From assembly GCA_028286605.1 (NCBI GenBank), contig JAQBRE010000002.1, positions 326,011-390,010 of the forward strand: a stretch of DNA of 64,000 bases, given 5' to 3'. Shown piece by piece: positions 6,142-47,808 of the stretch. The position numbers and the translations under genes were made by a program. Position 1 is the first letter of the stretch. Every line of letters starts with the position of its first letter. Source of the stretch: Parcubacteria group bacterium (GTDB taxonomy: Bacteria; Patescibacteriota; Minisyncoccia; Phycocordibacterales; Phycocordibacteraceae). The notes under the pieces are model-generated. The model did no database searches, was not told the origin of the DNA, and worked only from the letters and a program-made list of their open reading frames with translations.

Positions 6142-6143
6142 CT

Positions 6144-25153: not shown

Positions 25154-26131
25154 GTGCGTCATACGTACTATAAAGGTATGGGTATATCACTTGGTTTCAT
25201 GAACATGAAGAAAATAATCTATGGATTCGTGGCTGTAGGAATGCTGCTGATCTCAGCGCCTGCATATGCGCAAACGGCTCCGAATACAGGCACAGGCAGT
25301 AGCGGCACATCAAGCAACTGGTCAGGCTATGCGGCTGCAGGAGGAAATTACACGGGCGTTAACGGAAGCTGGACGATACCGGCGGCATCTCCGATTTCGG
25401 GAACGAAGCTTTCAGCGGACGCCGCATGGGTGGGTATCGGCGGCCTCACCACGAAGGACCTGATCCAGGCAGGCACGGAATCAGAGGTACAGAACGGTTC
25501 GGTTATTTATCAGGCGTGGTATGAGGCACTTCCTGCTGGGCAAGTGCAGGTTCCGGTGACTGTTCATGCGGGCGATAAAGTGACCGTTTCTTTGAACGAA
25601 ACCTCAACGAATGTCTGGCATCTTATATTTACGAATACGACGACGGGAAATGCATACCAGACGGATATCAATTACAGTTCCTCGCAGTCTTCCGCAGACT
25701 GGATAGAGGAAATGCCGGTCGGGCAGTTCGGTACTACGTCTTCGTATGTCCCGCTCGATATGTTCGGTACGATCCAGTTCAGTAATGCGTACGACACGAC
25801 GAACGGAAACGTGCAGACACTTACGAGTGGAGGAGCGCTCCCGCTTACGATGATGAATACGAATCGTCAGGCGCTCGCTACACCTTCAAGTATCGGTACG
25901 GACGCAGAAAGCTTCAGCGTGGCGCGTACGAATGCGACGGTTTCATCGACAGAAGTATCGCAAGTAGTGCAGAGCAGTCGTGGTTTCCGTCGCGGTGGCG
26001 AGGGCGTGACAAGCTATACGCCTGGAACACGCTATGTACAGCACACGCAGCAGGTCATCATGCGACAAACGCAGCAGATCATAACCCGTTCGGGCAATAC
26101 GATAAGCGTTCAGTTTTATTTGAGTCGCTAG
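25154..26131 (+). CDS. Peptidase G1 (eqolisin / scytalidoglutamic peptidase) family homolog, secreted
   Basis: Motifs SSNWSGYAAAG, AAWVGIGG, DLIQAGTE (catalytic Gln), AWYEA, SADWIEE (catalytic Glu), in the order and spacing of fungal eqolisins. Signal peptide from MKKIIYGF (the ATG at 25205 is the likely true start). Confidence 0.7.
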   Translation: MRHTYYKGMGISLGFMNMKKIIYGFVAVGMLLISAPAYAQTAPNTGTGSSGTSSNWSGYAAAGGNYTGVNGSWTIPAASPISGTKLSADAAWVGIGGLTTKDLIQAGTESEVQNGSVIYQAWYEALPAGQVQVPVTVHAGDKVTVSLNETSTNVWHLIFTNTTTGNAYQTDINYSSSQSSADWIEEMPVGQFGTTSSYVPLDMFGTIQFSNAYDTTNGNVQTLTSGGALPLTMMNTNRQALATPSSIGTDAESFSVARTNATVSSTEVSQVVQSSRGFRRGGEGVTSYTPGTRYVQHTQQVIMRQTQQIITRSGNTISVQFYLSR

Positions 26132-33317: not shown

Positions 33318-33389
33318 GTCCTCGTAGTTCAATGGATAGAACTCCGCACTCCTAACGCGGGAACCCAAGTTCGACTCTTGGCGAGGACA
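33318..33389 (+). tRNA. tRNA-Arg (anticodon CCT). CCA not encoded.
   Basis: Acceptor GTCCTCG/CGAGGAC, D-stem GTTC/GAAC, anticodon loop CTCCTAA, T-arm CCAAG-TTCGACT-CTTGG. There is one A-C mismatch at 31-39. Confidence 0.7.
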
Positions 33390-33435
33390 CCTGGAAGAGA
33401 AAAGTACCGATTTTCCCTGTGGTACGATATTTACA

Positions 33436-35295
33436 ATGGCTGATGAGAAGCTCCTAGAGCAGATACTTAAAGAGCGCGGTGCGGGAAAATCTGAAGAAGC
33501 CCTCCATGAGGAACTGAAGAAAGATGGGTGGCCTGAAGCGGACATTTACGGCGCATTTGCGGTGGCGAAGTTGCGCAGCAACCCCATGACCGCATCACGT
33601 CTTGCGCCCCCTGCGGTAGCGCCGCGCCGATCTAAGGGCAATCTGGTTTTCCAGATACTCATCGTTATCGTCCTGCTGGTTTCGGCACCGGCAGTATTCG
33701 GCTTCGTTACGGGTACGGTGCTTCCTGCGATCACCGCTCAGGCGAACGGTACCGCGACCAGCACGAGCCTCGCTACGCTCGGCCAATCCATCTTCGGTAT
33801 CGTGCCGCTCATTCCGGTAAAAGGTTCAGGTACGGGCTCGATCTTTTCGGCTCCTGCATCGAAATCAAGCGGATCGAGCGCGGCGGTATCGCACTCAACC
33901 ATAACTACGCAACCGACCGCGGCCACTCCTGCGCCTAACGCGGGGGCACCGATAACGACACAGACGCAAACCACTGTGCCGGTCGTAACAACGACGCAGA
34001 CCCCATTTTCTGTCCCTGATCAAGCGCCTGTCGTTACAGTTCCAAATCCTGTTGTTCCTGTTACTCCAGTCGTCACACCGCCCGTTGTACCGGTTGTACC
34101 AGTAACTCCTGTAACCCCGGTCGTACCCGTGGTGCCGGTCGTTCCTCCTGTCGCATCGCTCGCAACGGCGACAGATACGCCAAGCTTGCTTAAGGCATTG
34201 AAGGCGGCAAAGCCCGGCGACACTATTACGCTCGCTTCGAATACCTATTCAGGGCTTGGCACTATTGCAAACCTGAATTTCTCTTCACCCGTAACTGTTA
34301 CGTCGTACGATACGAGCCACAAGGCGATTCTTACGAATTTCAGCATGATGCGCGTTAACGGTCTAAGCTTCACCAACCTCGAATTCAGCAACCAAACTCC
34401 TACAGCATTTACGGTGAACACCTCGAGCTCGCAGAATATACGATTTGATTCCGATTATATCCACGGCTCGCTGGATGGTAATTCTGATGATGATGGCGGA
34501 GGTCTCGGCTTCCTTGATACCTCAAACGTAACGGTTTCGAATTCAACTCTTGAACAGCTTCGCCAGGGTATCAGCAACGGCGCTAATGTTACGCCAAGCG
34601 TTTCGAACATAACGATCACGGGAAATACTATAAAGGGAATGGAGAAGAGCGGTATGGTATTTGCAGGCGCAAGTAATGTTACGGTTACAGGAAACTCAAT
34701 AAGCGATATTGAGGTAGTACCTCCCGATCACCCGGATGGCATGCAGTTCTTCACGACCGGTACGACCGTTGCTGCGCATGACATTACCGTTGCGAATAAT
34801 GTGATCGTTAAAGGAAAGGGGCAGGCGGCGCAGGGCATTTTCTTCCGGGATCAGGTTGGAACGCTGCCATATCAGAATGTGCACATAGACAACAACCTTA
34901 TTATTGATACGGGATATGGCGGCGTGTATGCGGAAGGAGTCGGCTCAGGTGAATTGAGTGGTAACTTCCTTACCTCTGAACCAGGCTCAACAAACAATAC
35001 CTTCTTCTTGGTTCAGAACGGAGGTACTATTGCCGCAACTAATAACACTGCAACGGCAATCAGCTTTGATAATGTCACGAATCTTACGCAGTCGGGTAAC
35101 GCGACCACTACTCCGGTAACAGACCAAGGCTTGCAGGCGATGCGCGACTGGTCACAGAGCCATCCCGCAAGCGCAGCGCAGCTCGCGCCTTTCATCGGAG
35201 CGCTCAGCATCGCTGATTCCCATAGCATGCTTGCTTCGGCCGAAGCAGCCCTCGCCTCTGCACTGCACTATCTTTTGGGTCTGTTGCGATTGTAA
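33436..35295 (+). CDS. Single-pass membrane protein with a ~45 aa cytoplasmic N-domain, TM, Pro/Thr/Val-rich linker and extracellular right-handed parallel beta-helix domain (paralog of 44384..46483)
   Basis: The N-domain EKLLEQILKERGAGKSEEALHEELKKDGWPEADIYGAFAVAK aligns with the N-terminus of the 44384..46483 protein. TM NLVFQILIVIVLLVSAPAVFGF. Linker PVVPVTPVVTPPVVPVVP. PbH1-like repeats (ITITGNTI, VTVTGNSI, ITVANNVI). Confidence 0.6.
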   Translation: MADEKLLEQILKERGAGKSEEALHEELKKDGWPEADIYGAFAVAKLRSNPMTASRLAPPAVAPRRSKGNLVFQILIVIVLLVSAPAVFGFVTGTVLPAITAQANGTATSTSLATLGQSIFGIVPLIPVKGSGTGSIFSAPASKSSGSSAAVSHSTITTQPTAATPAPNAGAPITTQTQTTVPVVTTTQTPFSVPDQAPVVTVPNPVVPVTPVVTPPVVPVVPVTPVTPVVPVVPVVPPVASLATATDTPSLLKALKAAKPGDTITLASNTYSGLGTIANLNFSSPVTVTSYDTSHKAILTNFSMMRVNGLSFTNLEFSNQTPTAFTVNTSSSQNIRFDSDYIHGSLDGNSDDDGGGLGFLDTSNVTVSNSTLEQLRQGISNGANVTPSVSNITITGNTIKGMEKSGMVFAGASNVTVTGNSISDIEVVPPDHPDGMQFFTTGTTVAAHDITVANNVIVKGKGQAAQGIFFRDQVGTLPYQNVHIDNNLIIDTGYGGVYAEGVGSGELSGNFLTSEPGSTNNTFFLVQNGGTIAATNNTATAISFDNVTNLTQSGNATTTPVTDQGLQAMRDWSQSHPASAAQLAPFIGALSIADSHSMLASAEAALASALHYLLGLLRL

Positions 35296-35339: not shown

Positions 35340-35849
35340 ATGAATAAAACGAACTGGATTATCGCGATACTCGTAGGTATTGCGTTCGTGTGCACACTTA
35401 TTACGTATGCGGAAAGCCTTCATACTATGCCGGAAGCGCCGGCCGCTCCTGTGATTTCAACGACGACACAAACGAAACCGGTATCTACAACCCACACGCA
35501 GCCATCTTCCGGAGGAATTCTTATCCACACATTTGGCGATGTAACGCTTTCAGTAGGACAGACGGCAAAATTCAGCGATGTAACTATCGTGCCAGTAAGT
35601 ATCGATCAAGACAGTCGTTGCCCGCTCGGAACACTCTGTACGGTAGGATTCCAGGCAGGAACCGTAGAAGTTTCTACTCGTATTACTTCAGCTTCAGGTA
35701 CCCTCATACAAACGCTCGCACTAGGGAAGTCATTTACCATAGGTCATGATGTTATTACCCTTACGGGAGTAGAACCTGTAAAGCGTCGAGAGACGACCAT
35801 TCCTCAATCAAGCTACCAGCTGACCTTCAGTGTGGAACCGACTTCATAG
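35340..35849 (+). CDS. Hypothetical lipoprotein/secreted protein (169 aa)
   Basis: Signal peptide with Cys (IAFVCTLITYA), a Thr-rich linker, and a ~100 aa beta-rich domain with 2 Cys. Confidence 0.4.
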   Translation: MNKTNWIIAILVGIAFVCTLITYAESLHTMPEAPAAPVISTTTQTKPVSTTHTQPSSGGILIHTFGDVTLSVGQTAKFSDVTIVPVSIDQDSRCPLGTLCTVGFQAGTVEVSTRITSASGTLIQTLALGKSFTIGHDVITLTGVEPVKRRETTIPQSSYQLTFSVEPTS

Positions 35850-35917: not shown

Positions 35918-36346
35918 ATGAAAACGATGATTCACCGCACCAGCCGCGCATTCTATGATCCTTCGCTCGGCATCTTCCTTATCCGCCTGATGGTTGGTCT
36001 TGTCTTTCTTTCGCATGGATGGGGCAAGGTAGTAGCGCTTTCGGCAACCATGATGATGTTCGTGCATCTTGGCATGTGGCCCGTCGTCGGCGTCTTCATC
36101 GGATGGCTCGAAGTGGTCGGCGGTCTCGCGCTTGTCCTTGGCGTCGCGACTCGTTTCTTCGGCATCCTGTTCGCGATCGAGATGCTCGTCGCAGCTATCC
36201 TTATCGGCGTTTCTCACGGCTTCGGCGCGGTTGAGTTCGAACTCCTCCTCGCCGTCTGTTCGCTCGGCATCGTCTTCATCGGTTCAGGCAAGTACTCTAT
36301 ATACAAGATGGAGCGTCACCTGAATCCAGACGTCGCAGCCGCATAA
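35918..36346 (+). CDS. DoxX family membrane protein
   Basis: LIRLMVGLVFLSHGWGKV motif and 4 TM. 142 aa. Confidence 0.75.
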   Translation: MKTMIHRTSRAFYDPSLGIFLIRLMVGLVFLSHGWGKVVALSATMMMFVHLGMWPVVGVFIGWLEVVGGLALVLGVATRFFGILFAIEMLVAAILIGVSHGFGAVEFELLLAVCSLGIVFIGSGKYSIYKMERHLNPDVAAA

Positions 36347-36355
36347 TATTCGTTC

Positions 36356-36688
36356 ATGCCCGAAGGGAGCGAAAGCGAATCAGAGATATTCGAACGGTTA
36401 GACGTATTGTCTGATCTTATCGAAGAGAATATAAAGCTCGCGCACGATACGAACCGTATCGTGCGCGACATGCGACGTACCGGGCGCATCGCGTTCTGGT
36501 TCAAAGTGATCCTGTGGATCATCGTGCTCGGTCTGCCGCTCCTGTTCATCGGGCCGATCATGCAGTACTTCACCGCGCTCACCGGGTACTCGATTCCGGC
36601 CGGTACGAGCGCCTTCGGCATACCTTCCAGCACCCAGATACAGCAGGCCGTAACGGAGTTCAAGGCGAAGAATACGGCTACGCCGTAA
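36356..36688 (+). CDS. Hypothetical small membrane protein (110 aa)
   Basis: Acidic N-terminus, then a single TM (FWFKVILWIIVLGLPLLFIGPI). Confidence 0.35.
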   Translation: MPEGSESESEIFERLDVLSDLIEENIKLAHDTNRIVRDMRRTGRIAFWFKVILWIIVLGLPLLFIGPIMQYFTALTGYSIPAGTSAFGIPSSTQIQQAVTEFKAKNTATP

Positions 36689-36728
36689 AGGTGAAATACG
36701 GCCCCTGCTATGGTAGGATAGCCGTATT

Positions 36729-36801
36729 GCTTGGGTAGCTCAGTTGGTAGAGCGCTTCCCTGAAGAGGAAGATGTCCCCGGTTCGAATCCGGGCCCAAGC
36801 A
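36729..36801 (+). tRNA. tRNA-Phe (anticodon GAA). CCA not encoded.
   Basis: GCTTGGG-TA-GCTC-AGTTGGTA-GAGC-G-CTTCC-CTGAAGA-GGAAG-ATGTC-CCCGG-TTCGAAT-CCGGG-CCCAAGC-A. Confidence 0.9.
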
Positions 36802-36805
36802 CCTG

Positions 36806-39342: not shown

Positions 39343-41487
39343 CTAATTACTTGGCCAGCTGGCGACGATGAGCATACCGTCGTGTTCAGGAAGGCTCTGC
39401 CAGATCTCTTCAGTTACGAATGGCATGAAGGGGTGGAGGAGGATGAGGACGTCCTTCAAGAGGGCGCGCAGCGTAGCTGCGCGCGATGCAGCCGCTTCCT
39501 TATCATCCCCAAGAAGTATCGGCTTCGATTCTTCCAGAATACGATCCGCTAATTCCTTCCACGCATATTGATACATTTTGTCGGCAGCAAGATACATGCG
39601 ATACGCTTCCATATCTTTCGTTACATCTGCAGCTATATCGGCGAGTTCGGTTTTCAGTGCCATGTCCACTTCTGTGAGCGGCGCATCCAAATCTGCACCC
39701 TCGGTGCTCTCAAGTATGAAGCGCGTGATATTCCAGAGCTTGTTCGCGAAGTGCTTATAACCCTTTATCTTATCGTCTGAAAGTCGCGTGTCCATTCCGG
39801 GCGTATTGCCCACGACTATAGCCATGCGTGACGCATCAGCGCCGAACTTATCGATCATGACAATTGGATCAATACCGTTACCAAGAGACTTAGAGAACTT
39901 CTGCCCCTTCGCGTCGCGAATGAGGCCGTGCAGATAGACGGTCTTGAATGGAATATCGCCAAGCACGAACTGCGTCATAAGGATCATGCGCGCGACCCAG
40001 AAGAAAAGGATGTCGTGTCCGGTTTCAAGAACATCAGTCGGATGGAAGCGCGCGAGGTCTGGTGTTTCATCCGGCCAGCCAAGGGTTGAGAAGGTCCACG
40101 AGCCCGAAGAGAACCACGTGTCGAGCGTGTCTTCATCCTGTACCCAGCCATCGGTAGCCCAGTCTCCTTCAGGCGGTTCACCTACGGTTATTTCATCGCC
40201 GCGCGTCCATACCGGTACGCGATGTCCGTACCAGATCTGACGGCTGATGCACCAGTCCCGAAGATTTTCAATCCAGTGGTAATACGTCTTATCAAGATAT
40301 TCAGGAAGAATCGTTATTGCGCCAGAACGTACGGGCTCAAGCATAAGCTCCTTCAGTGATTTGTTGCCGCGCTCCTTGATCGGCTTATTCACATCGATGA
40401 ACCACTGCAGTTTCGGAAGAGGCTCGATAACGCCGCCCGTGCGTTCAGCCGTAGAGATGTTCTGCGTGATGTCTTCTTCGTTTTCAAGCAAGCCCTGTTC
40501 CTTCAGCCACTCAACGACTTTCTCGCGCGCTTCTCCGACCTTAAGTCCATTAAGTGGCCCAGCAACCATCATCTTTGCGCGCTCATCGATAACCTGCGGA
40601 TGCGGCAGATTGTGGCGCTCAGCGATTTCCCAGTCTATCTGTGAATGTGCGGGCGTAACGCCAAGGGCACCGGTGCCGAATTCAGGCTCAACGCTCGTAT
40701 CGCCGACGATCTTTATATGAAGCGGTACGCCCATGAATTCAAGATCGTATTCTTTTCCGATGAATTCCTTATAGCGAATGTCGTCGGGATGTACCGCAAC
40801 TGCCGTATCGCCAACCTTCGTTTCAGGACGGCTCGTGGCAATAGTGATAGGGAAGTCCTTAGAATATTTAAAGGTATAGAGTTTTCCTGCGCGCTCCTGA
40901 TGAACGATCTCATCATCTGAAATCGTCGTCTGGCCTTTCGGATCCCAGTTAACGATACGTAAGCCTTTATAGATAAGGCCGGCATCATACATATCCTTGA
41001 ACATCGTGTTAACGGCTCGGTTGCGCTTCTGGTCCAGGGTGAAGGCTTCGCGAGACCAATCGCAGGACGCACCCGTCGCACGGATCTGCATGCGGATAGT
41101 ATCGCGACTTTCTTCAACGAACGTGTCGATTCGTTTCAGGAGCTCTTCGCGACCAAGATCATGACGACTCTTGCCTTCGGCTTTCTGAACGTCTTTCTCG
41201 ACGCGCGATTGCGTAGCAATCGCGGCGTGGTCCGTACCAGGCAGCCAGAGTGCTTCGTACCCCTGCATACGCCTGAAGCGAATCATCATGTCCTGAAGCG
41301 TCATGCCGAGCATGTGGCCCATATGCAGAACGCCTGTGGCATTCGGTGGCGGCATCATGATGGTGAAGGGTCCCTTCGTGGCGTTCGGAAGATTGTCCGG
41401 GTTGAAATAGCCCGATTCTTCCCACATCTGGTAGATGCGGGTCTCGGTATCTGCAGAGTTGTACGGCTTCTTGAATTTATCAATCAT
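39343..41487 (-). CDS. valS: Valine--tRNA ligase (short form lacking C-terminal coiled coil)
   Basis: PPPNATGVLHMGH (HIGH region), KFSKSLGN (KMSKS), and editing-domain features. 714 aa. Confidence 0.85.
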   Translation of the reverse strand: MIDKFKKPYNSADTETRIYQMWEESGYFNPDNLPNATKGPFTIMMPPPNATGVLHMGHMLGMTLQDMMIRFRRMQGYEALWLPGTDHAAIATQSRVEKDVQKAEGKSRHDLGREELLKRIDTFVEESRDTIRMQIRATGASCDWSREAFTLDQKRNRAVNTMFKDMYDAGLIYKGLRIVNWDPKGQTTISDDEIVHQERAGKLYTFKYSKDFPITIATSRPETKVGDTAVAVHPDDIRYKEFIGKEYDLEFMGVPLHIKIVGDTSVEPEFGTGALGVTPAHSQIDWEIAERHNLPHPQVIDERAKMMVAGPLNGLKVGEAREKVVEWLKEQGLLENEEDITQNISTAERTGGVIEPLPKLQWFIDVNKPIKERGNKSLKELMLEPVRSGAITILPEYLDKTYYHWIENLRDWCISRQIWYGHRVPVWTRGDEITVGEPPEGDWATDGWVQDEDTLDTWFSSGSWTFSTLGWPDETPDLARFHPTDVLETGHDILFFWVARMILMTQFVLGDIPFKTVYLHGLIRDAKGQKFSKSLGNGIDPIVMIDKFGADASRMAIVVGNTPGMDTRLSDDKIKGYKHFANKLWNITRFILESTEGADLDAPLTEVDMALKTELADIAADVTKDMEAYRMYLAADKMYQYAWKELADRILEESKPILLGDDKEAAASRAATLRALLKDVLILLHPFMPFVTEEIWQSLPEHDGMLIVASWPSN

Positions 41488-41505
41488 TAGCTAAAATATA
41501 GCAAA

Positions 41506-41527
41506 AACCGCGCTTTTTTGCGCGGTT
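41506..41527 (-). terminator. Terminator after tsaD (minus strand)
   Basis: aaccgcgc-tttttt-gcgcggtt hairpin, with a T-run on the minus strand. Confidence 0.5.
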
Positions 41528-42742
41528 CTAGGATGCAGAGAGGGACAGGTTGCCGTTTGCCTTCAGTTCATCGATATCAGCGAAATCCTTACGAAGCCAG
41601 GAATAGAAACCAGCGATGGCGATCATAATGGCGTTGTCGCCGGTGAGAAAGGCAGAAGGTATGAAAAGAGAAACCTCAGGGTGATCCTGCGGCAGGCGCT
41701 CACGGAAGACGCGGCGTATGTGTGCGTTCGCAGAAACGCCTCCGCCGATAGCGAGCGTAAGCGCGCCGGTCTGTGCAAGTGCTTTCGATGCTTTTGCATA
41801 CAGCACGTCGCTTGCGGCATCTTCGAAGGCGCGAGCGAGCTGTTCCTTCTCGAGCTCAGTCAGTTCCTTTCCTTTCGTAAGATAGAGCACTGATGTCTTG
41901 AGGCCGCTGAAGGAGAAGTCGCAATCGTTCGTGTCGATCATCGGACGGGGAAGCTTGTATGGGTTTGTGCGGGAATCTTCGCGATCGCGTTCCGCAAGTT
42001 TAGACACCTCGGGGCCTCCCGGGTACGGGAGGCCCAGCATGCGCGCCACTTTATCGAATGCCTCACCGACCGCATCATCGCGCGTCTGGCCGATGAGCTG
42101 GTATTCACGCCACACATTCGCTGCATCCAGTTCTGTGTGTCCGCCAGAAATAAGCAGCGCGAGCAGCGGCATCTGTACGTCTTTCAATTCGTACGTACGC
42201 TCGCCTGCTTCGGTCAGGAGCGCAGAAAGCGTATGGCCTTCCATGTGATTCACGGCGATAAGCGGCTTGTCCCAAATAATAGAAAGTGCCTTAGCGAAGT
42301 TCACGCCAACCCAGAGCGCGGGCTCAAGGCCAGGGCCCGCCGTTACGGCAATCGCATCGATATCCGGAACTTCCATTTCAGAAACGGAAGCAAGGAACGC
42401 TTCGTCAAGATCAGGCTCGCGTTCAAGCAGCTTGGCGATACGCTCAGGCAGACCTTCTGCGAAGGTCTGCCTGTCTTCGCGCAGCATCTCTGCTTCTTCA
42501 AGCGCCGCTTCTAGTATGGGTACGAGATTCTTCGCATGTTCGCGCTTGGCGACGGCAGGAAACACGCCGCCGAATTCACGATGAATCTCGATCTGCGAAA
42601 GCAGCGCATTTCCTAAGATAGTGAATCGCGCAGCGTTCTCGTCGCCTTCGCATTCAAGGATAGCGATGGCCGTTTCGTCGCACGAGGTCTCAATTGCCAG
42701 CAGTTTCATCTTCGATAAGGGTCCACGGGAAGGGGCCTTCAC
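41528..42742 (-). CDS. tsaD: tRNA N6-adenosine threonylcarbamoyltransferase TsaD (Kae1/YgjD family) with a ~60 aa insertion
   Basis: N-terminus MKLLAIETSCDETAIAI and metal-binding His motifs. 404 aa against about 340 typical. Confidence 0.8.
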   Translation of the reverse strand: MKAPSRGPLSKMKLLAIETSCDETAIAILECEGDENAARFTILGNALLSQIEIHREFGGVFPAVAKREHAKNLVPILEAALEEAEMLREDRQTFAEGLPERIAKLLEREPDLDEAFLASVSEMEVPDIDAIAVTAGPGLEPALWVGVNFAKALSIIWDKPLIAVNHMEGHTLSALLTEAGERTYELKDVQMPLLALLISGGHTELDAANVWREYQLIGQTRDDAVGEAFDKVARMLGLPYPGGPEVSKLAERDREDSRTNPYKLPRPMIDTNDCDFSFSGLKTSVLYLTKGKELTELEKEQLARAFEDAASDVLYAKASKALAQTGALTLAIGGGVSANAHIRRVFRERLPQDHPEVSLFIPSAFLTGDNAIMIAIAGFYSWLRKDFADIDELKANGNLSLSAS

Positions 42743-43547
42743 GCGGGATAAGGAAACCAGATGCGCTCGGATGGCCGTTGCCGCCGAACTTCTGCGCGAT
42801 CTTGCTTACATCTATCGTGCCATCGCCGCGAATAGAAACGCCGTATCCGTTCGGATGCGCGGTTATCACGAGCGCGAACGGGCCCTTCTTGCGCGCAAGC
42901 TTATTGCCGATAAGTGATTTCATGGATTTCATCGGATGGCTCGATGCGAAATATATTTTATGGCCTTCGAATGATACGAGCTTCGCGTGACCAGCCGCCT
43001 CTTCTGCTAACAACTCGAAATATTCAGCGTAAATACGAGTCTTTTCGAAAAACGGTTCACGTTCGATAGGATCATCAAGCTTCTTTGCCATTTCGTCCCA
43101 TGATTCGAACGTAAGAGGATGTACTTCGAGATATGCCATCAGAGCTTTCGTGTCAGGAAGTGCGAACAGGAAGAGATCGTCATCCTGCACGTGAGCAAGC
43201 AGTGTTGGAAGGGGAGTTTCCGGATGAAAATAACGCCAAGCAATGCCCGCACCAGACAGTTCAGTTTCGTACACGTATTCAGGCATCGCCTGTATGACGT
43301 CAGCGACACCTTCGTGATGATCGAGCACCGTTACTTTAGAGGCGATTGATACGAAGTGATCCATATCTTCCTTCGCATAGCAGAAATCTATAAAATAGAG
43401 ATGCGCCCCCTCAAGACCTTCCTGCAAAGGAGTACCGCGATGTAGCGGGAAGTATTCAGCCGAATCACCGAACTTTTTCCACGCGGCATAAGCCCCTCCG
43501 AAGCCGTCGGGGCAGTTACCGTGATAGAGAATTACTGTGCGTCCCAT
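42690..43547 (-). CDS. DHH/DHHA1 phosphoesterase (NrnA-like oligoribonuclease / pAp phosphatase)
   Basis: DHH motif (VLDHHEG) and DHHA1 motif (GGNGHPSASG). The likely start is MGRTVILYHG. Overlaps the tsaD 3' end by about 50 nt. Confidence 0.65.
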   Translation of the reverse strand: MGRTVILYHGNCPDGFGGAYAAWKKFGDSAEYFPLHRGTPLQEGLEGAHLYFIDFCYAKEDMDHFVSIASKVTVLDHHEGVADVIQAMPEYVYETELSGAGIAWRYFHPETPLPTLLAHVQDDDLFLFALPDTKALMAYLEVHPLTFESWDEMAKKLDDPIEREPFFEKTRIYAEYFELLAEEAAGHAKLVSFEGHKIYFASSHPMKSMKSLIGNKLARKKGPFALVITAHPNGYGVSIRGDGTIDVSKIAQKFGGNGHPSASGFLIPREGPFPWTLIEDETAGN

Positions 43548-43577
43548 ATATAGGTTATAGCGCATTTCTGCCTAGTG

Positions 43578-43650
43578 TGCGCGGTGTAGGATTCGAACCT
43601 ACGACATCGTCAACGTCAATGACGCGCTCTACCAACTGAGCTAACCGCGC
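43578..43650 (-). tRNA. tRNA-Val (anticodon GAC). CCA not encoded.
   Basis: Reverse complement GCGCGGT-TA-GCTC-AGTTGGTA-GAGC-G-CGTCA-TTGACGT-TGACG-ATGTC-GTAGG-TTCGAAT-CCTAC-ACCGCGC-A. Confidence 0.9.
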
Positions 43651-43765
43651 ATATCGAACTGGAAGCAGAATAGCGCATCTCGGGGTTATCTTCAACATGA
43701 AGGGCGGTACTCATGTACGTGCAAAACTCCATTTGCGTTGCACGGAGGTCGTATACTATTTGTAT

Positions 43766-44317
43766 ATGAAAAACAATTACGCGTGGGCGATTATCGTGCT
43801 CGTTCTTGTAGTGGCAGCCGGAGCAATCTGGTTCATGATGAATAAGGCGAACGTTCCGCTTCCTGATGCCGCAACGACGGTTGGCACAGGAACCACCGGC
43901 GCAACTCATACCGGTACTGCAGGAGGAGTTAAGACGACTTCTTCAGGAACGGTGGTAACGACTGACACTCGTCCTAAGATCACGAGCATCAATCCTGCAC
44001 AGGGCAAGCCAGGCGCAGTTGCTCAGATCAAGGGTGTGAATTTTGACAGCTCGACGAACGTCATTACCTTCGGTCCTTCCAAAGGTCTTCATCGTGCGGA
44101 TGGTACTGCAGACAATCAGGTAGGATCACTTGCCTCATCGGATGGCACGACTCTTAGCTTCACGGTACCGACGACTCTCCAGAGCGGCATGCTCTGTGAC
44201 CAGTCCAACGTATGTAAGACCTATGGCACAGGTTCAATCGCAACGGGCGTATACGATGTTACGGTCATCAACAAGAATGGCCTCAGCAATACGTTCCCAT
44301 TCAGCGTCATTCAATAA
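43766..44317 (+). CDS. Hypothetical secreted protein with N-terminal TM anchor, Thr/Gly-rich linker and a beta-sandwich (IPT/TIG-like) domain
   Basis: MKNNYAWAIIVLVLVVAAGAIWF anchor, then TTGATHTGTAGGVKTTSSGTVVTT, then KITSINPAQGKPGAVAQIKGVNF. Start taken at the internal ATG. Confidence 0.4.
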   Translation: MKNNYAWAIIVLVLVVAAGAIWFMMNKANVPLPDAATTVGTGTTGATHTGTAGGVKTTSSGTVVTTDTRPKITSINPAQGKPGAVAQIKGVNFDSSTNVITFGPSKGLHRADGTADNQVGSLASSDGTTLSFTVPTTLQSGMLCDQSNVCKTYGTGSIATGVYDVTVINKNGLSNTFPFSVIQ

Positions 44318-44327
44318 TTAATCCTTT

Positions 44328-44364
44328 AAAAAACACGGCCTTGCTATGCAAGGCCGTGTTTTTT
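44328..44364. terminator. Bidirectional terminator between convergent genes
   Basis: aaaaaacacggccttgc-tatg-caaggccgtgtttttt. Confidence 0.65.
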
Positions 44365-44383
44365 AATACCCACCCACAAATAT

Positions 44384-46483
44384 CTAGAATAGATTCGCCA
44401 GGAACGTTCGTAACCAAGAAGCGAATACGCCAACCGAGGCAAGAAGGGAAGTGTGCGATACGACAGGAGCAATAGAGACCTGGCCCTGATATTCATAGGC
44501 GCCACGATCATAGGTTCCATCTGCGCCGCGAGTAACGCCGTATGCATCAACATTGTACGGTGAGCCGAGACTCACGCCTGGATTGAGTGGCGCACTCAGA
44601 TGGTAATCGCTCGTGAATACGTCAGTGCCGCTGCGAACGAATGGATCGGTACTCGAACCAATCTGAGCATTTGTATCATTCAGAGCTGCACCGGGGTTTT
44701 CGTCCACTGGAGTAGGAACACCGCTGGTTCGAACGTTTTTTGAGAAGTAATCGTTCGCGTGCGTTACGCCAAAGAAGCCGAATCCGTTACTTTGGTTGTT
44801 GTACCAGATATTGTTATAGACCAGATTGTTCGTGCCTTGTTCTATATGAAGCGCACCCACTGACGAGTTCTTCATATTCACCACGTCGTTGTTATAGAAC
44901 TGAAGATTATCCATTTCCTGCAAATCATTTCCCGTATGGTAGTAGTAGATGGTACTGACGCTGTCAGAGAAGATGTTTCCATAGATGCTCCAGTTCGTAG
45001 ATATTCCAAGATTAACTCCCGCGAATACGCCCGTCCCATTAATATCGTTCCAAATATTATTACGGAACGTCCAATTATCATTGGTTCCCTGTGAGGAGAC
45101 GCCTTCAGCATGATAGTTGGGGCAGATTGGATCGGTGTAGCCGGTGCTCTTCACGCCATCAATGGCATTATCTTCAATAAGAACGTTACTCCAATTGTTG
45201 AGATAGAATGCAGCACCGAACAAATTGTGCAGATAGTTGTCGCGGAAGGTGAAACCAGTTCCACCTGTCGTTCCGTTTATGCCGCGCATCGGGAACGTTA
45301 TGTCACCAGCATACGCGTTAACGTGCTCAATCGTGAGATTAGAGACCGTGTTAGTAAGCTGGAAGAGCATATGGAAGCCATTGCAGACTGGATTAGTCTG
45401 CGTAACGGTAATGCCGAAGCCGCTCGTCCAGTTTCCTGGGCCTCCCCCGGTTGAACCGTCAAGCACGTAGTACGGGGTCGTGTAGTTGAACATCGGGAAC
45501 GTGGCCGTTCCGGTTCCATAGGAAGAAATCCAGCCCGTATCAGTTCCGTGATTGCTCTGGGTGGCTTTCTTAACGGTTATTAGTGTACTGCCAGAGGCCG
45601 CATCGCTGAAGGTGTGGATGGCATATTCTGTTCCGGAGCCGCAGAGGTAATAGGTATCACCGCGCACCAATGATTTAGGAAGGTCGAGATAGGCGTTGGT
45701 CCAGTCAGCACCGGTATGTGTGCCTGCCGTTGCGTCAGGACACACATATACGAACGTAGGATCCGTAACCGTTGGAGTTACTGGCACTACCGGTAGTACT
45801 ACGGGAGGCTTATTGGATATCGGAGTAGGCGTAGGGTCCGGCGTCGGGGTAGGTGTGGGAGTAGGCGCTGGCGGAGTAACGGTGGTCGTTTGAGTATTCG
45901 TATCGGATGTACCGGTAACTGAAGAAACAGTATTCGTAACGGTCGAAATAATCGTGCCAAGCACGGATGTTGATACTGGCGTCGATGCAGGAGCCGGAGA
46001 CGGCGCAGAAGATACGGCTGGTGCAGGCGCGCCCGTGTTTGAGGAAATACGCGGAACGCTTGGCGACACATATGTGGATGGTGAAACTGCTGAATGTGCA
46101 GCAACAGGAATTTGAGGAGCAATACCCAAGAGGGAATAATCCTTGAGGCTGTCGCTTGCCTTGACGGGTTGTCCCTTGGTAGCAGGGATGATGACTCGCG
46201 TCATGAGTCCGTATGCTCCGGGTGCTGAAACGATGACAACCGCGATAAGTACTAACTGAAGGAAAATGCTCGTCTTGCTGTGCGCAGGAGCCCTTTGAAC
46301 CGAGGAATATTGGGTCTGTGAACGCAACGCGAAAGGTCCTGTCTGGATTTTCAGGATAGCAAATGCGCCATTTACGTCTTCCGCACTCGACCCTTTAGAA
46401 GTGAGGTCTTTAAGAATGTCTTCTTCAGAATGCCCTGAGGCCTGTTTCTGACGTATGGTGTCGAGAAGTTCCTGGCTAGCCAT
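44384..46483 (-). CDS. Single-pass membrane protein with a conserved cytoplasmic N-domain, Pro/Thr-rich linker and extracellular right-handed beta-helix domain (paralog of 33436..35295)
   Basis: The N-terminus QELLDTIRQKQASGHSEEDILKDLTSKGSSAEDVNGAFAILK matches the first paralog. TM IFLQLVLIAVVIVSAPGAYGL. Linker PTPTPTPTPDPTPTP. Repetitive N/G/T-rich beta-helix rungs (NNIWND, YGNIFSD, YNNDVVN). Confidence 0.6.
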   Translation of the reverse strand: MASQELLDTIRQKQASGHSEEDILKDLTSKGSSAEDVNGAFAILKIQTGPFALRSQTQYSSVQRAPAHSKTSIFLQLVLIAVVIVSAPGAYGLMTRVIIPATKGQPVKASDSLKDYSLLGIAPQIPVAAHSAVSPSTYVSPSVPRISSNTGAPAPAVSSAPSPAPASTPVSTSVLGTIISTVTNTVSSVTGTSDTNTQTTTVTPPAPTPTPTPTPDPTPTPISNKPPVVLPVVPVTPTVTDPTFVYVCPDATAGTHTGADWTNAYLDLPKSLVRGDTYYLCGSGTEYAIHTFSDAASGSTLITVKKATQSNHGTDTGWISSYGTGTATFPMFNYTTPYYVLDGSTGGGPGNWTSGFGITVTQTNPVCNGFHMLFQLTNTVSNLTIEHVNAYAGDITFPMRGINGTTGGTGFTFRDNYLHNLFGAAFYLNNWSNVLIEDNAIDGVKSTGYTDPICPNYHAEGVSSQGTNDNWTFRNNIWNDINGTGVFAGVNLGISTNWSIYGNIFSDSVSTIYYYHTGNDLQEMDNLQFYNNDVVNMKNSSVGALHIEQGTNNLVYNNIWYNNQSNGFGFFGVTHANDYFSKNVRTSGVPTPVDENPGAALNDTNAQIGSSTDPFVRSGTDVFTSDYHLSAPLNPGVSLGSPYNVDAYGVTRGADGTYDRGAYEYQGQVSIAPVVSHTSLLASVGVFASWLRTFLANLF

Positions 46484-46529
46484 GAAATTTCGTTTCCGGA
46501 TTCATGAGGAAATAATAGCACTAGTTTTG

Positions 46530-46601
46530 TGACTCCACGGGGAATCGAACCCCGATTTCAGCCGTGAAAGGGCCGCGTCCTAACCGTTAGACGATGGAGC
46601 C
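46530..46601 (-). tRNA. tRNA-Glu (anticodon TTC). CCA not encoded.
   Basis: Reverse complement GGCTCCA-TC-GTCT-AACGGTTAG-GAC..., anticodon loop CTTTCAC, T-arm CGGGG-TTCGATT-CCCCG, acceptor TGGAGTC. Confidence 0.85.
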
Positions 46602-46623
46602 TTCTGTGAAGGCGGCACCAGCC

Positions 46624-46659
46624 TATCCTAGCATTTTTGGGCCCAAAAATGCTAGGATA
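46624..46659. repeat. 36 bp perfect palindrome (TATCCTAGCATTTTTGGG|CCCAAAAATGCTAGGATA) in the divergent intergenic region between tRNA-Glu (-) and tRNA-Ser (+)
   Basis: Arms are exact reverse complements, with a GGGCCC centre. Confidence 0.55.
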
Positions 46660-46684
46660 CCAAGGTTCAACCAATTTTTACCCT

Positions 46685-46769
46685 GGAGAGGTGGCAGAGT
46701 GGTCGAATGCACCGGTTTCGAAAACCGGCGTACCGCAAGGTACCGGGAGTTCGAATCTCCCCCTCTCCG
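46685..46769 (+). tRNA. tRNA-Ser (anticodon CGA), type II. CCA not encoded.
   Basis: Acceptor GGAGAGG/CCTCTCC, anticodon stem CCGGT/ACCGG, loop TTCGAAA, long variable arm, T-loop GTTCGAATC. Confidence 0.85.
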
Positions 46770-46774
46770 CAAAT

Positions 46775-46804
46775 AATGAACGCCTGCTTCAGCAGGCGTT
46801 CATT
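46775..46804 (+). terminator. Hairpin terminator after tRNA-Ser(CGA)
   Basis: aatgaacgcctgc-ttca-gcaggcgttcatt. Confidence 0.55.
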
Positions 46805-46845
46805 CGTATCTGCTAGTATAGATAAATATCAGTTATTGCACTGTC

Positions 46846-47226
46846 ATGATCCAGCACCTCACTATTCACGTTAATGACATTGAGAAGAGTAAAGAATTCT
46901 ATCTCGAAGCACTGAAGCCGCTAGGTTATGAATTGATTAGTGATCATCCAGAATGGAAACTCGCCGGCATCGGGAAAAACGGAAAATCTGAGCTGTGGAT
47001 ATATGCAGCTGAAGGAGCAAAGCAAGTGGGGCACGTTGCGTTCGCAGCACTTAGTAAGGAGGAAGTGGATGGTTTCCATGCCGCAGCGCTTACTCATGGT
47101 GGCACCGATAATGGTGCGCCGGGATATCGCAAGGATTATGCTCCGAACTATTACGCATCGTTCGCGTTTGATCCGAGCGGTAACAACATCGAGACAGTGT
47201 TCATGGATCCCGATCCAACGATCTAG
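46846..47226 (+). CDS. VOC (glyoxalase/bleomycin-resistance) family protein
   Basis: MIQHLTIHVNDIEKSKEFY N-terminus with paired beta-alpha-beta-beta-beta modules. 126 aa. Confidence 0.7.
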   Translation: MIQHLTIHVNDIEKSKEFYLEALKPLGYELISDHPEWKLAGIGKNGKSELWIYAAEGAKQVGHVAFAALSKEEVDGFHAAALTHGGTDNGAPGYRKDYAPNYYASFAFDPSGNNIETVFMDPDPTI

Positions 47227-47232
47227 CGATTC

Positions 47233-47808
47233 ATGGTGACATCCGCCGAGTGGCTAGAACTTTTCTTGAACCTGATCGTCTTGGCCTTCGGATTCAAACT
47301 CGTGTCCGAAATAGCCCGCAACGGAAAGGTACCGCCTTTCATACGTACGCGTACCCTGATTGCGCAAGAGATCGCTGATGCGTTCGGAACGCTTCCGAAA
47401 GGAAGCGTCGTGTATGACCCTGGCTGCGGCGATGGACGAGTGCTTTTTGCTATCGCCGCGAAGAATCCGGGCGTGCAGTGCGTCGGCATCGAATTGCGCC
47501 TGTTCCCATACTTTCTGGCACTGCGTCGCCGCGCTGCATTCCTGCGAGAGTATCCGGAAGCGAAAGTCAGGGTTATTCGCGGCAACAGCTTCAAACAGGA
47601 TCTTTCGTCCGCAACGCATGTGTATACGTATCTTTATCCTGAAGTGCTAGATAGATTGTTACCTAAGTTCGAGAAAGAGCTTCACCCCGGCACTATACTT
47701 ATTTCGCTGGATTTCAAATTCTTGAAGAAGATATCAGAACGAATAATTCCGCTTGCGCACGCAGAGAAAGGGAAGCTGGGTGAAACGTTATATGTATACC
47801 GCTTCTGA
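47233..47808 (+). CDS. Class I SAM-dependent methyltransferase
   Basis: Motif I VYDPGCGDGR and downstream VGIELR. 191 aa. Confidence 0.65.
   Translation: MVTSAEWLELFLNLIVLAFGFKLVSEIARNGKVPPFIRTRTLIAQEIADAFGTLPKGSVVYDPGCGDGRVLFAIAAKNPGVQCVGIELRLFPYFLALRRRAAFLREYPEAKVRVIRGNSFKQDLSSATHVYTYLYPEVLDRLLPKFEKELHPGTILISLDFKFLKKISERIIPLAHAEKGKLGETLYVYRF

What the first reader, a model, noticed from the sequence alone, without database searches (positions are those of the whole stretch)
43578..46769. tRNA-bounded segment 2 with the second beta-helix paralog and a secreted beta-sandwich protein
Between tRNA-Val(GAC) and the tRNA-Glu(UUC)/tRNA-Ser(CGA) pair lie a secreted IPT/TIG-like protein (43766..44317) and the 699 aa paralog (44384..46483, minus strand). 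They are separated by a strong bidirectional terminator. Both beta-helix paralogs sit in tRNA-flanked cell-surface islands. That is consistent with horizontally exchanged or rapidly evolving surface gene cassettes. The ectodomain of this copy is extremely Asn/Gly/Thr/Tyr-rich, with many N-x-[ST] sequons and repeated YNN / WNN rungs.
Basis: inference. Interest (0 to 1): 0.55.

Follow-up and report, generated by a model that had tools for sequence, protein, structure and literature searches.

The report
Variable surface-gene slot between conserved tRNAs
Between conserved tRNA genes in the housekeeping core of a tiny-genome Parcubacteria (CPR) bacterium lies a slot whose gene content differs from species to species; here it holds a small anchored Ig-like protein and a genome-specific, membrane-anchored sugar-polymer-binding or -cutting beta-helix protein from an undescribed modular family.

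Summary
The features are real. Three tRNAs bound the segment. It holds a 183-aa N-terminally anchored Ig-like (IPT/TIG-fold) protein, a perfect bidirectional terminator hairpin and a 699-aa protein with a confident right-handed beta-helix.

In related species the flanking tRNA and housekeeping backbone is conserved, but the Glu/Ser-to-Val interval ranges from 22 bp to 7.2 kb. The 699-aa gene is absent from all 80 related loci. In one relative (L083) the small gene abuts tRNA-Glu, with 58 bp between them. So the large gene is accessory. The small gene is inherited in place in at least five related lineages.

There is no integrase, no tRNA-derived direct repeat and no clear compositional anomaly, so this is not a classical tRNA island.

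The "paralog" relation is partial. The two window proteins share a 127-aa N-terminal module (three-helix cytoplasmic domain, TM helix, juxtamembrane motif) and a similar-looking C-terminal tail. Their beta-helix ectodomains are not detectably similar (E=0.08). The module defines a family absent from Pfam and NCBIfam, with 146 cluster representatives and varied ectodomains.

Homologues of this ectodomain lie in exopolysaccharide gene clusters and in one phage-like block, which suggests a glycan-binding or depolymerase role.

Sequons are not enriched, and there are no WNN motifs.

The parts
43577..43650 (-). tRNA-Val(GAC), left boundary of the slot. It lies 11 bp from the start of the DHH/DHHA1 gene (42690-43565).
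   Evidence: ARAGORN and Rfam at 71 bits. It holds the same position relative to DHH-TsaD-ValRS in 68 related loci.
43766..44317 (+). TIG183, a 183-aa protein. It has an N-terminal TM anchor (aa 4-27), a Thr/Gly-rich disordered linker (aa 27-64) and an Ig-like IPT/TIG-fold domain (aa ~70-181) with two invariant Cys (C144, C150).
   Evidence: ORF. Alignment with 11 homologues at 49-67% identity fixes the start. AF2 pLDDT is 80-94 over the domain. Foldseek hits include the galactose oxidase C-terminal domain, CGTase and the EBF3 and NF-kB IPT/TIG domains. 5 of 11 homologues carry PF01833. It lies just past tRNA-Val, on the side away from DHH, in L001, L083, L084/L085 and L086/L087; in L086/L087 a DoxX gene sits between tRNA-Val and the TIG gene.
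44326..44366 (.). Bidirectional intrinsic terminator between the two convergent genes. It has a 13-bp GC-rich stem flanked by A6 and T6, which fold as a perfect 19-bp stem.
   Evidence: the repeat finder I1. Fold gives dG -29 kcal/mol, z -9.7, and 0 of 200 shuffles fold as well. The consensus terminator scan missed it, presumably because the T-run pairs into the stem.
44384..46483 (-). BH699, a 699-aa genome-specific surface protein (NCBI JWM39_453, annotated hypothetical).
   Evidence: ORF. The only full-length database match is itself; the best other hits are 33-37% identical over the ectodomain only. It is absent from all 80 related loci.
46334..46483 (-). BH699 aa 1-50: N-terminal three-helix cytoplasmic module.
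   Evidence: AF2 predicts helices 4-15, 20-29 and 34-48 with pLDDT 82-97. The profile finds 146 cluster representatives, nearly all matching at their extreme N-terminus. There is no Pfam, NCBIfam or PDB sequence match.
46223..46285 (-). BH699 aa ~67-87: single TM helix with the conserved juxtamembrane motif SAPGAYGL.
   Evidence: Hydropathy scan, AF2 helix 70-86, and the motif is conserved in the closest family members.
45764..46222 (-). BH699 aa 88-240: Ser/Pro/Thr-rich disordered stalk.
   Evidence: AF2 pLDDT is below 50 over aa 88-239. There is no DNA tandem repeat.
44504..45763 (-). BH699 aa 241-660: right-handed parallel beta-helix ectodomain, rich in N/G/T/Y. The family-conserved residues include R274, H312, W318, H458, S463, D646 and R652.
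   Evidence: AF2. Foldseek PDB hits are GH136 lacto-N-biosidase, PL6 alginate lyases, RG lyase, C5-epimerases and tailspikes, from E 1.6e-5. BFVD hits are pectate-lyase-superfamily and tailspike proteins. Conserved columns come and composition.
44387..44470 (-). BH699 aa ~672-699: C-terminal tail SHTSLLASVGVFASWLRTFLANLF. This is the SLLASV motif plus a hydrophobic/amphipathic helix.
   Evidence: The same kind of tail is seen in 15 family members. AF2 predicts a helix at 686-698 with low confidence.
46512..46520 (-). Candidate extended -10 box TGCTATTAT for BH699, directly after the tRNA-Glu 3' end and 28 nt before the ATG.
   Evidence: Read from the sequence. The same box type (TGCTAGGAT) is conserved upstream of the tRNAs in relatives. 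This is an inference, and the sigma-70 scan did not report it.
46529..46601 (-). tRNA-Glu(UUC), right boundary. Its 3' end is the exact right edge of the BH699 presence/absence difference.
   Evidence: BLASTN collinearity with L083 resumes at 46528.
46624..46659 (.). Perfect 36-nt palindrome between the divergent tRNA-Glu and tRNA-Ser. It reads as two back-to-back extended -10-like boxes, a probable shared divergent promoter.
   Evidence: the repeat finder I2. It is recognisable as ATCCTA(G)CATTT-N-AAATGCTAGGAT, or a close variant, in most of the 37 related loci where the two tRNAs are adjacent and divergent.
46685..46770 (+). tRNA-Ser(CGA), followed by a hairpin at 46775-46804.
   Evidence: I8. 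The hairpin is also present in L083.
33436..35295 (+). BH619, the other window member of the same modular family. It starts 44 bp after tRNA-Arg(CCT) (33318-33391), and its slot ends at tRNA-Phe(GAA) (36729-36803).
   Evidence: Pfam Beta_helix scores 58 bits. It is absent from all related loci, while its neighbour p169 (35340-35849) is present in 5 of them.

Best explanation
The segment is a gene-turnover slot inside an otherwise strongly syntenic housekeeping region of a Paceibacteria/Parcubacteria (CPR) genome. Conserved tRNA genes frame it.

It holds two unrelated envelope proteins.
1. TIG183 is a small type-II-anchored Ig-like protein that this lineage has inherited in place next to tRNA-Val.
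2. BH699 is specific to this genome. It is built from an N-terminal cytoplasmic three-helix module, one TM helix, a conserved juxtamembrane motif, a disordered Ser/Pro/Thr stalk, a pectate-lyase-fold beta-helix and a conserved C-terminal helix.

The constant ends define an undescribed, multi-copy CPR family whose members carry at least four unrelated beta-helix ectodomain types. BH699's ectodomain belongs to a family otherwise found as ordinary signal-peptide proteins in exopolysaccharide gene clusters and in a phage-like block.

Most likely function (inferred): the beta-helix is held away from the membrane on the stalk, and it binds or cleaves a polysaccharide on a host or neighbouring cell, or in the matrix.

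Most likely origin (inferred): the gene arrived, or was re-assorted, at the junction between the TIG183 stop codon and tRNA-Glu. This happened by integrase-independent recombination, with the highly conserved tRNA cluster serving as a homology anchor.
For: Shown:
- The anatomy of both genes.
- The backbone is conserved while slot content varies. The Glu/Ser-to-Val interval runs 22-7182 bp in 50 species. tRNA-adjacent junctions exceed 1 kb in 33-82% of loci, against 0-6% for gene-gene junctions.
- BH699 and BH619 are absent from 80 loci.
- L083 has Val-TIG-Glu with only 58 bp after the TIG stop. BLASTN collinearity breaks at 44289 and resumes at 46528.
- Other relatives carry different genes at the same junction: a 250-aa ORF in L001, and HxlR/LUD/glyoxalase in L084.
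- TIG183 is syntenic in L001, L083, L084/L085 and L086/L087.
- The N-module family has 146 representatives. 131 of them have their first TM at residue 50-130, and they carry diverse C-terminal domains.
- The ectodomains of the members tested fall into separate BLASTP groups, and BH699 stands alone.
- The closest N-module relative (P0029) lies in the closest related genome (C7867-007) but at a different locus, between fusA and tuf.
- Fold matches go only to glycan-active beta-helices.
- Ectodomain homologues P0002 and P0010 lie in EPS clusters, and P0009 lies in a block with a phage portal gene.
- The tRNA cluster is the best-conserved DNA in the region: 82-87% identity against 72-76% for the flanking genes.
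Against: - No enzymatic residues could be assigned. Identity to solved enzymes is 10-13%, so a purely adhesive role is equally possible.
- Gain is not formally separated from repeated loss, because no tree was built.
- The relatives are distinct species (DHH 46-80% identical), so the timescale of turnover is unknown.
- GC3 of BH699 (0.52) is lower than in most core genes (0.55-0.70), but DHH (0.51) and the glyoxalase (0.49) are similar.
- Only 3 of 6 examined family members lie next to a tRNA.
- The recombination mechanism is an inference.
- This is a MAG contig, so a chimeric join at conserved tRNAs cannot be ruled out with these tools.
Confidence: 0.6

Rival explanations
1. This is a degraded classical tRNA-targeting genomic island. 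A site-specific integrase inserted the segment into a tRNA gene, and the integrase was later lost.
For: The variable DNA abuts tRNA genes, and content differs between relatives. GC3 is slightly lower than in most core genes.
Against: No integrase or transposase domain is found in the slot or in the 64-kb window genes examined. No copy of a tRNA 3' segment lies at the distal edge. The difference from L083 is a single gene of 2.2 kb that ends exactly at intact genes on both sides. No integrase-like product was recognised among the ORFs listed for the same slot in 50 relatives.
Confidence: 0.07
2. Both genes are ancestral core genes of the lineage. Relatives simply lost BH699, and the variable intervals reflect genome reduction rather than gain or exchange.
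For: TIG183 is indeed inherited in place. CPR genomes are known to be shaped by reduction (PMC4508563, PMC11188291). BH699 carries a lineage-typical N-module.
Against: BH699 is absent from all 80 related loci and from the five further TIG183-homologue loci examined, and the database holds no protein above ~41% identity to it. Different relatives carry different, unrelated genes at the same junction. BH699's ectodomain is unlike that of any other family member tested.
Confidence: 0.2
3. This is an assembly artefact. The MAG contig is chimeric at the conserved tRNA genes, and BH699 belongs to another co-occurring population.
For: tRNA genes are near-identical between related species, which can mislead assemblers. 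The protein is seen on one contig only.
Against: The BH699 N-module is closest to proteins of the nearest related genome, C7867-007. A second family member lies in the same window. GC is similar to the neighbours. The gene is neatly framed by a terminator shared with TIG183 and by a promoter-like box. The contig is 532 kb.
Confidence: 0.05

Closest known systems
tRNA-associated genomic islands / integrative elements (for example pathogenicity islands at tRNA loci)
   Same: Accessory DNA lies directly beside tRNA genes. It is present in one genome and absent or different in relatives, within a conserved backbone.
   Different: There is no integrase, no att-type direct repeat and no clear compositional signature. 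The unit is a single 2.2-kb gene. Both edges are intact functional genes (the TIG183 stop and terminator, and the tRNA-Glu 3' end). The slots in relatives also hold housekeeping genes.
Right-handed parallel beta-helix carbohydrate-active proteins (PL6 alginate lyases, GH136 lacto-N-biosidases, rhamnogalacturonan lyase, mannuronan C5-epimerases, phage tailspike depolymerases)
   Same: The fold matches (Foldseek E down to 1.6e-5 against PDB and 1.3e-6 against BFVD). The sequence shows an Asn-rich ladder. Sequence homologues of the ectodomain sit in EPS gene clusters and in a phage-like block.
   Different: Identity to any solved enzyme is only 10-13%. No CAZy family or catalytic residues could be assigned. 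The Pfam Beta_helix score is just under threshold. The domain is tethered by an N-terminal TM anchor and a long stalk instead of being secreted through a signal peptide.
IPT/TIG (E-set) Ig-like domains, Pfam PF01833
   Same: TIG183 has a predicted seven-to-nine-strand sandwich that matches the EBF3 and NF-kB IPT/TIG domains, CGTase and the galactose oxidase C-terminal domain. 5 of 11 homologues carry PF01833.
   Different: The window protein itself gives no PF01833 hit even at E<=10. It is a stand-alone single domain on a membrane anchor, with a conserved Cys pair.
C-terminal tripartite sorting signals (LPXTG/sortase, PEP-CTERM/exosortase, GlyGly-CTERM/rhombosortase)
   Same: The family tail has a short conserved motif (S-L-L-A-S-V), then about 20 hydrophobic or amphipathic residues. 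11 of 15 members have K or R in the last six residues.
   Different: The N-terminus is an uncleaved anchor with a cytoplasmic domain, not a signal peptide. The helix is often too polar for a TM segment (mean Kyte-Doolittle hydropathy -0.1 to 1.3 in most members). No cognate processing enzyme was identified. BH699 itself lacks the terminal basic residue. This is a resemblance only.
Adhesin-like large surface proteins noted in Parcubacteria genomes (Nelson and Stegen 2015, PMC4508563)
   Same: They come from the same lineage (the C7867 genomes are the closest relatives found). They are beta-rich surface proteins proposed to mediate contact with partner cells.
   Different: Those proteins exceed 1500 aa and contain internal repeats. 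The family described here runs about 550-820 aa, has defined constant ends, and is not mentioned in that paper's text as searched.

Membership tests
Integrase-mediated tRNA genomic island | Tyrosine or serine recombinase gene at the tRNA-proximal end | tested here: not met
   Pfam scans of the slot genes and of 29 window ORFs in all found no integrase or transposase.
Integrase-mediated tRNA genomic island | Direct repeat of the tRNA 3' end (attL/attR) at the distal boundary | tested here: not met
   The repeat finder with seed 8 and minimum length 12 on 43000-47500 found only a trivial T-arm match and chance pairs.
Integrase-mediated tRNA genomic island | Variable presence among related genomes | tested here: met
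   Interval length runs 22-7182 bp in 50 species. BH699 is absent from 80 loci, and L083 has a clean 2.2-kb difference.
Integrase-mediated tRNA genomic island | Atypical base composition | tested here: inconclusive
   BH699 has GC 0.506 and GC3 0.516, against a window GC of 0.530 and core GC3 of 0.55-0.70. DHH (0.51) and the glyoxalase (0.49) are similar.
Right-handed parallel beta-helix (Pfam PF13229, pectate-lyase fold) | Pfam score at or above the gathering threshold | tested here: not met
   The score is 24.3 bits (full length) and 25.6 bits (ectodomain) against 25.9, so it is marginal. BH619 passes at 58 bits.
Right-handed parallel beta-helix (Pfam PF13229, pectate-lyase fold) | Stacked three-strand coils forming a right-handed solenoid | tested here: met
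   The AF2 model shows regular short strands over aa 244-580 with pLDDT mostly 80-96. All top Foldseek hits in PDB and BFVD have this fold.
Polysaccharide lyase / glycoside hydrolase (a specific CAZy family) | Family-level sequence similarity and catalytic residues in place | tested here: not met
   No relevant PDB sequence match at E<=1; the only two hits were weak, short matches to an unrelated attenuation protein. Identity to structural hits is 10-13%. Conserved H458/E460/S463, D646 and R652 are candidates only.
IPT/TIG domain (PF01833) | Pfam match | tested here: inconclusive
   The window protein gives no hit at E<=10. 5 of 11 homologues carry a precomputed PF01833 hit, one of them marked faint.
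IPT/TIG domain (PF01833) | E-set Ig-like sandwich fold | tested here: met
   AF2 pLDDT is 80-94. Foldseek hits include EBF3 IPT/TIG, NF-kB dimerisation domains, CGTase and the galactose oxidase C-terminal domain.
Paralogy of BH699 and BH619 | Significant similarity along the whole protein | tested here: not met
   Only the N-terminal 127 aa match (E 5e-19). The ectodomains give E=0.08. phmmer finds no cross-hit for the cores or the C-terminal 60 aa.
Intrinsic (rho-independent) bidirectional terminator | GC-rich hairpin with a U-run on both strands | tested here: met
   Perfect hairpin with A6 on the 5' side and T6 on the 3' side, dG -29 kcal/mol. Function was not tested.
Sortase/exosortase-type C-terminal sorting signal | Motif, TM helix and basic tail, plus an N-terminal signal peptide and a cognate enzyme | tested here: not met
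   A tail motif is present. However, the N-terminus is a TM anchor with a cytoplasmic domain, hydrophobicity is often sub-TM, and no cognate enzyme was identified.

The most novel reading that the evidence does not exclude
The constant ends form a dedicated display system of CPR bacteria. The ends are the N-terminal three-helix cytoplasmic module, the TM helix, the juxtamembrane SAPGAYGL motif and the C-terminal SLLASV helix. In this reading the C-terminal helix is a second anchor or a new kind of sorting or processing signal. Unrelated glycan-active beta-helix ectodomains are swapped between the constant ends by recombination. The resulting genes are loaded preferentially into tRNA-flanked slots by homology-driven, integrase-free exchange. 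Each episymbiont lineage would thereby acquire its own host-surface specificity.
Probability: 0.15. Interest if true: 0.65.

Novelty: new variant of a known kind. Interest (0 to 1): 0.4.

Why it matters
CPR/Patescibacteria are mostly uncultured and have tiny genomes, and they are thought to live attached to other cells. Which proteins decide host contact is largely unknown. This locus gives three concrete leads.

1. In a very conserved core region, gene-content change is concentrated at tRNA-flanked junctions without any integrase. That pattern can be tested across CPR genomes.
2. There is an unannotated N-terminal anchor module with 146 cluster representatives. It marks a set of envelope proteins with many different ectodomains.
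3. A subgroup has constant ends and exchangeable, depolymerase-like beta-helices. Its members differ even between the closest related genomes, which makes them candidate determinants of host or matrix specificity.

None of this overturns current views. It provides handles for annotation and for experiments.

Tried and rejected
- Direct repeats of tRNA ends and inverted repeats at the slot edges: only chance matches.
- Integrase or transposase search in the slot and the wider window: none.
- DNA tandem repeats in the Pro/Thr stalk as a slippage mechanism: none.
- Other structured RNAs in 43000-47500: only the three tRNAs.
- The consensus promoter/terminator scan was uninformative and missed the obvious hairpin.
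- Sequence search of the ectodomain against PDB: nothing meaningful.
- tblastn of the ectodomain against 50,697 phage genomes: no match.
- Pfam, NCBIfam and PDB sequence searches for the N-terminal module: nothing.
- The word-index protein search with the N-module profile found only one protein. The exhaustive search was needed.
- N-glycosylation-sequon enrichment: rejected, 11 observed against 8.5 +/- 2.5 expected.
- Literature searches for CPR/Parcubacteria beta-helix surface proteins or tRNA-flanked islands found nothing specific.
- The idea that the two beta-helix genes share an upstream region through duplication was rejected. Both start 44-45 bp after a co-oriented tRNA, but the spacers are unrelated.

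Full report
**Observation**

ARAGORN finds tRNA-Val(GAC) at 43577-43650 (-), tRNA-Glu(UUC) at 46529-46601 (-) and tRNA-Ser(CGA) at 46685-46770 (+). Rfam confirms all three.

Two convergent ORFs lie between them: 43766-44317 (+, 183 aa) and 44384-46483 (-, 699 aa). A perfect hairpin separates them at 44326-44366, with 19-nt arms, dG -29 kcal/mol, z -9.7, and A6/T6 flanks. It can terminate both genes.

The 699-aa protein is NCBI JWM39_453 from a 'Parcubacteria group bacterium' MAG, on a 532-kb contig. The neighbours are housekeeping genes:
- on one side, HSP20, PrsW, ValRS, TsaD and DHH/DHHA1;
- on the other, glyoxalase, a methyltransferase, endonuclease V, thioredoxin reductase, FtsZ and FtsA.

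**The small protein (TIG183)**

Alignment with 11 homologues (49-67% identity) fixes the start at 43766. It also shows three parts: an N-terminal TM helix, a Thr/Gly-rich linker and a conserved domain with two invariant cysteines.

AF2 gives a TM helix at aa 4-27, a disordered stretch at 27-64 and an Ig-like sandwich with pLDDT 80-94. Foldseek matches E-set/IPT-type domains: EBF3 IPT/TIG, NF-kB dimerisation domains, CGTase and the galactose oxidase C-terminal domain.

The window protein has no direct PF01833 hit, but 5 of 11 homologues do. 'IPT/TIG-like' is therefore supported at fold level. 'Secreted' is not shown, and a signal-anchor is at least as likely.

**The large protein (BH699)**

The AF2 model predicts, in order:
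- an N-terminal three-helix bundle, pLDDT 82-97;
- a TM helix at aa 70-86;
- a disordered Ser/Pro/Thr stalk at aa 88-239;
- a beta-helix at aa ~244-580, pLDDT mostly 80-96;
- a C-terminal helix predicted with low confidence.

Foldseek hits only pectate-lyase-fold glycan enzymes in PDB: GH136 lacto-N-biosidase, PL6 alginate lyases, RG lyase, C5-epimerases and tailspikes. In BFVD it hits pectate-lyase-superfamily and tailspike proteins. Identity is 10-13%, so no enzyme family can be assigned. The Pfam Beta_helix score is just below threshold.

The N/G/T/Y enrichment is real. The 11 sequons are what the composition predicts (8.5 +/- 2.5). YNN occurs three times and WNN never.

**How far the two beta-helix genes are paralogs**

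BH699 and the 619-aa protein at 33436-35295 share the first 127 aa at 33% identity, E 5e-19. That stretch covers the three-helix module, the TM helix and a juxtamembrane motif (SAPGAYGL...P...IPV). Their C-terminal tails also look alike (SIA..SH..LAS plus a helix). Their beta-helix parts are not detectably similar: BLASTP gives E=0.08, and phmmer finds no cross-hit.

**The module family**

A profile of the shared module was searched exhaustively against 1.84 billion cluster representatives. It found 146 proteins at E<=1e-3, nearly all matching at their extreme N-terminus.
- Of these, 131 have their first hydrophobic segment at residue 50-130, and 116 have a single such segment.
- Lengths run from 48 to 869 aa.
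- C-terminal domains are diverse: Beta_helix, NosD, RDD, TSP3, PsbP-like, DKNYY, polysaccharide lyase and propellers.
- Pfam, NCBIfam and PDB sequence searches do not recognise the module.

A subgroup of about 15 representatives, including both window proteins, also shares a C-terminal tail. The tail has an S-L-L-A-S-V-like motif followed by an amphipathic or hydrophobic helix. In 11 of 15 members a K or R lies in the last six residues. Most of the closest members also share the juxtamembrane motif.

I stripped the constant ends from 12 subgroup members and compared the remaining middles by BLASTP. The middles fall into separate groups, and BH699 is alone.

BH699's ectodomain instead resembles ordinary signal-peptide proteins of other bacteria, at 33-37% local BLASTP identity (30-41% in the MAFFT alignment). 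Two of these lie in exopolysaccharide gene clusters. One lies in a block with a phage portal gene. One lies in an ordinary Pseudobdellovibrionaceae context.

This points to a glycan-directed function and to a chimeric origin of BH699, with family-specific ends around a foreign middle. Both points are inferences.

**Comparative genomics**

I used the adjacent DHH protein as a probe and fetched 80 loci from related Paceibacteria/Kaiserbacteria-type species, with DHH 46-80% identical. The conserved backbone is:

FtsA-FtsZ-TrxR ... tRNA-Ser/tRNA-Glu ... tRNA-Val ... DHH-TsaD-ValRS-PrsW-HSP20-DUF2914-tRNA-Phe ... tRNA-Arg-tRNA-Gly

Interval lengths vary widely at the tRNA-flanked junctions.

| Junction | Range or median | Loci above 1 kb |
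|---|---|---|
| tRNA-Glu/Ser to tRNA-Val | 22-7182 bp (n=50, median 1.66 kb; 2878 bp here) | 65% |
| tRNA-Phe to tRNA-Arg | 40-3226 bp (3337 bp here) | 39% |
| All tRNA-adjacent junctions | - | 33-82% |
| Junctions between housekeeping genes | median -7 to 102 bp | 0-6% |

BH699 and BH619 occur in none of the 80 loci. TIG183 homologues sit next to tRNA-Val in L001, L083, L084/L085 and L086/L087.

In L083 the slot holds only the TIG gene, with 58 bp and a different hairpin before tRNA-Glu. BLASTN collinearity with the window runs 41012-44289 and resumes at 46528. BH699 is thus a clean 2.2-kb presence/absence difference, bounded by the TIG stop codon and the tRNA-Glu 3' end.

Other relatives carry unrelated genes at the same junction. 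Across all relatives the slot holds a mixture of housekeeping and accessory genes, not specifically surface genes.

The nearest N-module relative of BH699 (P0029) lies in the nearest related genome, C7867-007. There it sits between fusA and tuf, with no tRNA nearby. A second member in that genome (P0032) lies 171 bp from tRNA-Asn. Two further members have no tRNA within 5 kb.

**Mechanism of turnover**

No integrase, transposase, att-like repeat or tandem repeat was found. The compositional deviation is weak. The tRNA cluster is the best-conserved DNA of the region, at 82-87% identity against 72-76% for the flanks.

My preferred reading is integrase-independent recombination that uses conserved tRNA or core flanks as anchors. 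This is an inference only.

**Verdict**

However, this is not a classical tRNA island, and the small gene is inherited in place. The 'paralogs' share only their anchoring ends.

The most interesting outcome is the undescribed modular anchor family with exchangeable beta-helix ectodomains. Interest is moderate (0.4). I class it as a new variant of known kinds: a surface glycan-active beta-helix protein and a genome plasticity hotspot.

Noticed in passing
window 46624-46659; L001-L077 Ser/Glu spacers: A perfect 36-nt palindrome lies between the divergent tRNA-Glu and tRNA-Ser. It is recognisable in most of the 37 related loci compared as ATCCTA(G)CATTT-N-AAATGCTAGGAT or a close variant. It reads as two back-to-back extended -10-like boxes (TGCTAGGAT), each ~23-26 nt upstream of its tRNA, so it is probably a shared divergent promoter. 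Similar boxes precede tRNA-Phe (TGGTAGGAT, ~36706-36714), BH699 (TGCTATTAT) and BH619 (TGGTACGAT).
   Followed up: partly
window 46334-46483 (-) and 33436-33585 (+); P0029-P0172: The N-terminal three-helix cytoplasmic module plus TM helix has the consensus M..QQLLDYI...L..G.S.E.I...L...GW...DI..AF. It is found in 146 cluster representatives with very diverse C-terminal domains. Pfam, NCBIfam and PDB sequence searches do not recognise it.
   Followed up: partly
window 44387-44470 (-), 35215-35292 (+); C-termini of P0029-P0035, P0040, P0042, P0051, P0061, P0083, P0084, P0164: A conserved C-terminal tail has the motif S-L-L-A-S-V followed by an amphipathic or hydrophobic helix, usually ending in K/R. 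It may be a second anchor or a sorting-signal-like element. Its role is unknown.
   Followed up: partly
L081 3459-6593 (Parcubacteria bacterium C7867-007, LFCQ01000007.1): The closest N-module relative (P0029, 763 aa, annotated 'putative glucanase') is inserted between fusA (EF-G) and tuf (EF-Tu) at the head of the S10 ribosomal-protein gene region. A 165-aa pilin-like (N_methyl) gene precedes it.
   Followed up: no
L004, L005, L008, L014, L019, L021, L024, L028, L035, L036, L071 (ORF next to tRNA-Val): A TsaC/YrdC-like ORF (motif ..GG.I.YPTDT.YGLG..A) lies beside tRNA-Val in many relatives but is missing from this slot in the window. The identification rests on the motif alone.
   Followed up: no
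window 43566-43576 versus relatives: The tRNA-Val to DHH spacer is 11 bp here, but its median is ~1.7 kb in relatives and it reaches 4.1 kb. This is a second variable junction on the other side of the same tRNA. Its content was not examined.
   Followed up: no
window 35919-36337 and 36357-36688: The other tRNA-bounded slot (tRNA-Arg to tRNA-Phe) also holds a DoxX-like membrane protein and a small membrane ORF, besides BH619 and p169. A DoxX gene occupies the Val-TIG interval in L086/L087, so similar genes appear in different tRNA slots in different genomes.
   Followed up: no
window 25154-26131 (+): A 325-aa ORF has a strong Peptidase_A4 match (E 1.2e-34), which is unexpected in a reduced CPR genome.
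   Followed up: no
L090 (JGI 3300005526 contig, 6001-7536): P0009, a homologue of the BH699 ectodomain, lies in a co-directional block of unannotated ORFs with an SU10-type portal gene. It is a likely phage tailspike or depolymerase of the same beta-helix family.
   Followed up: no
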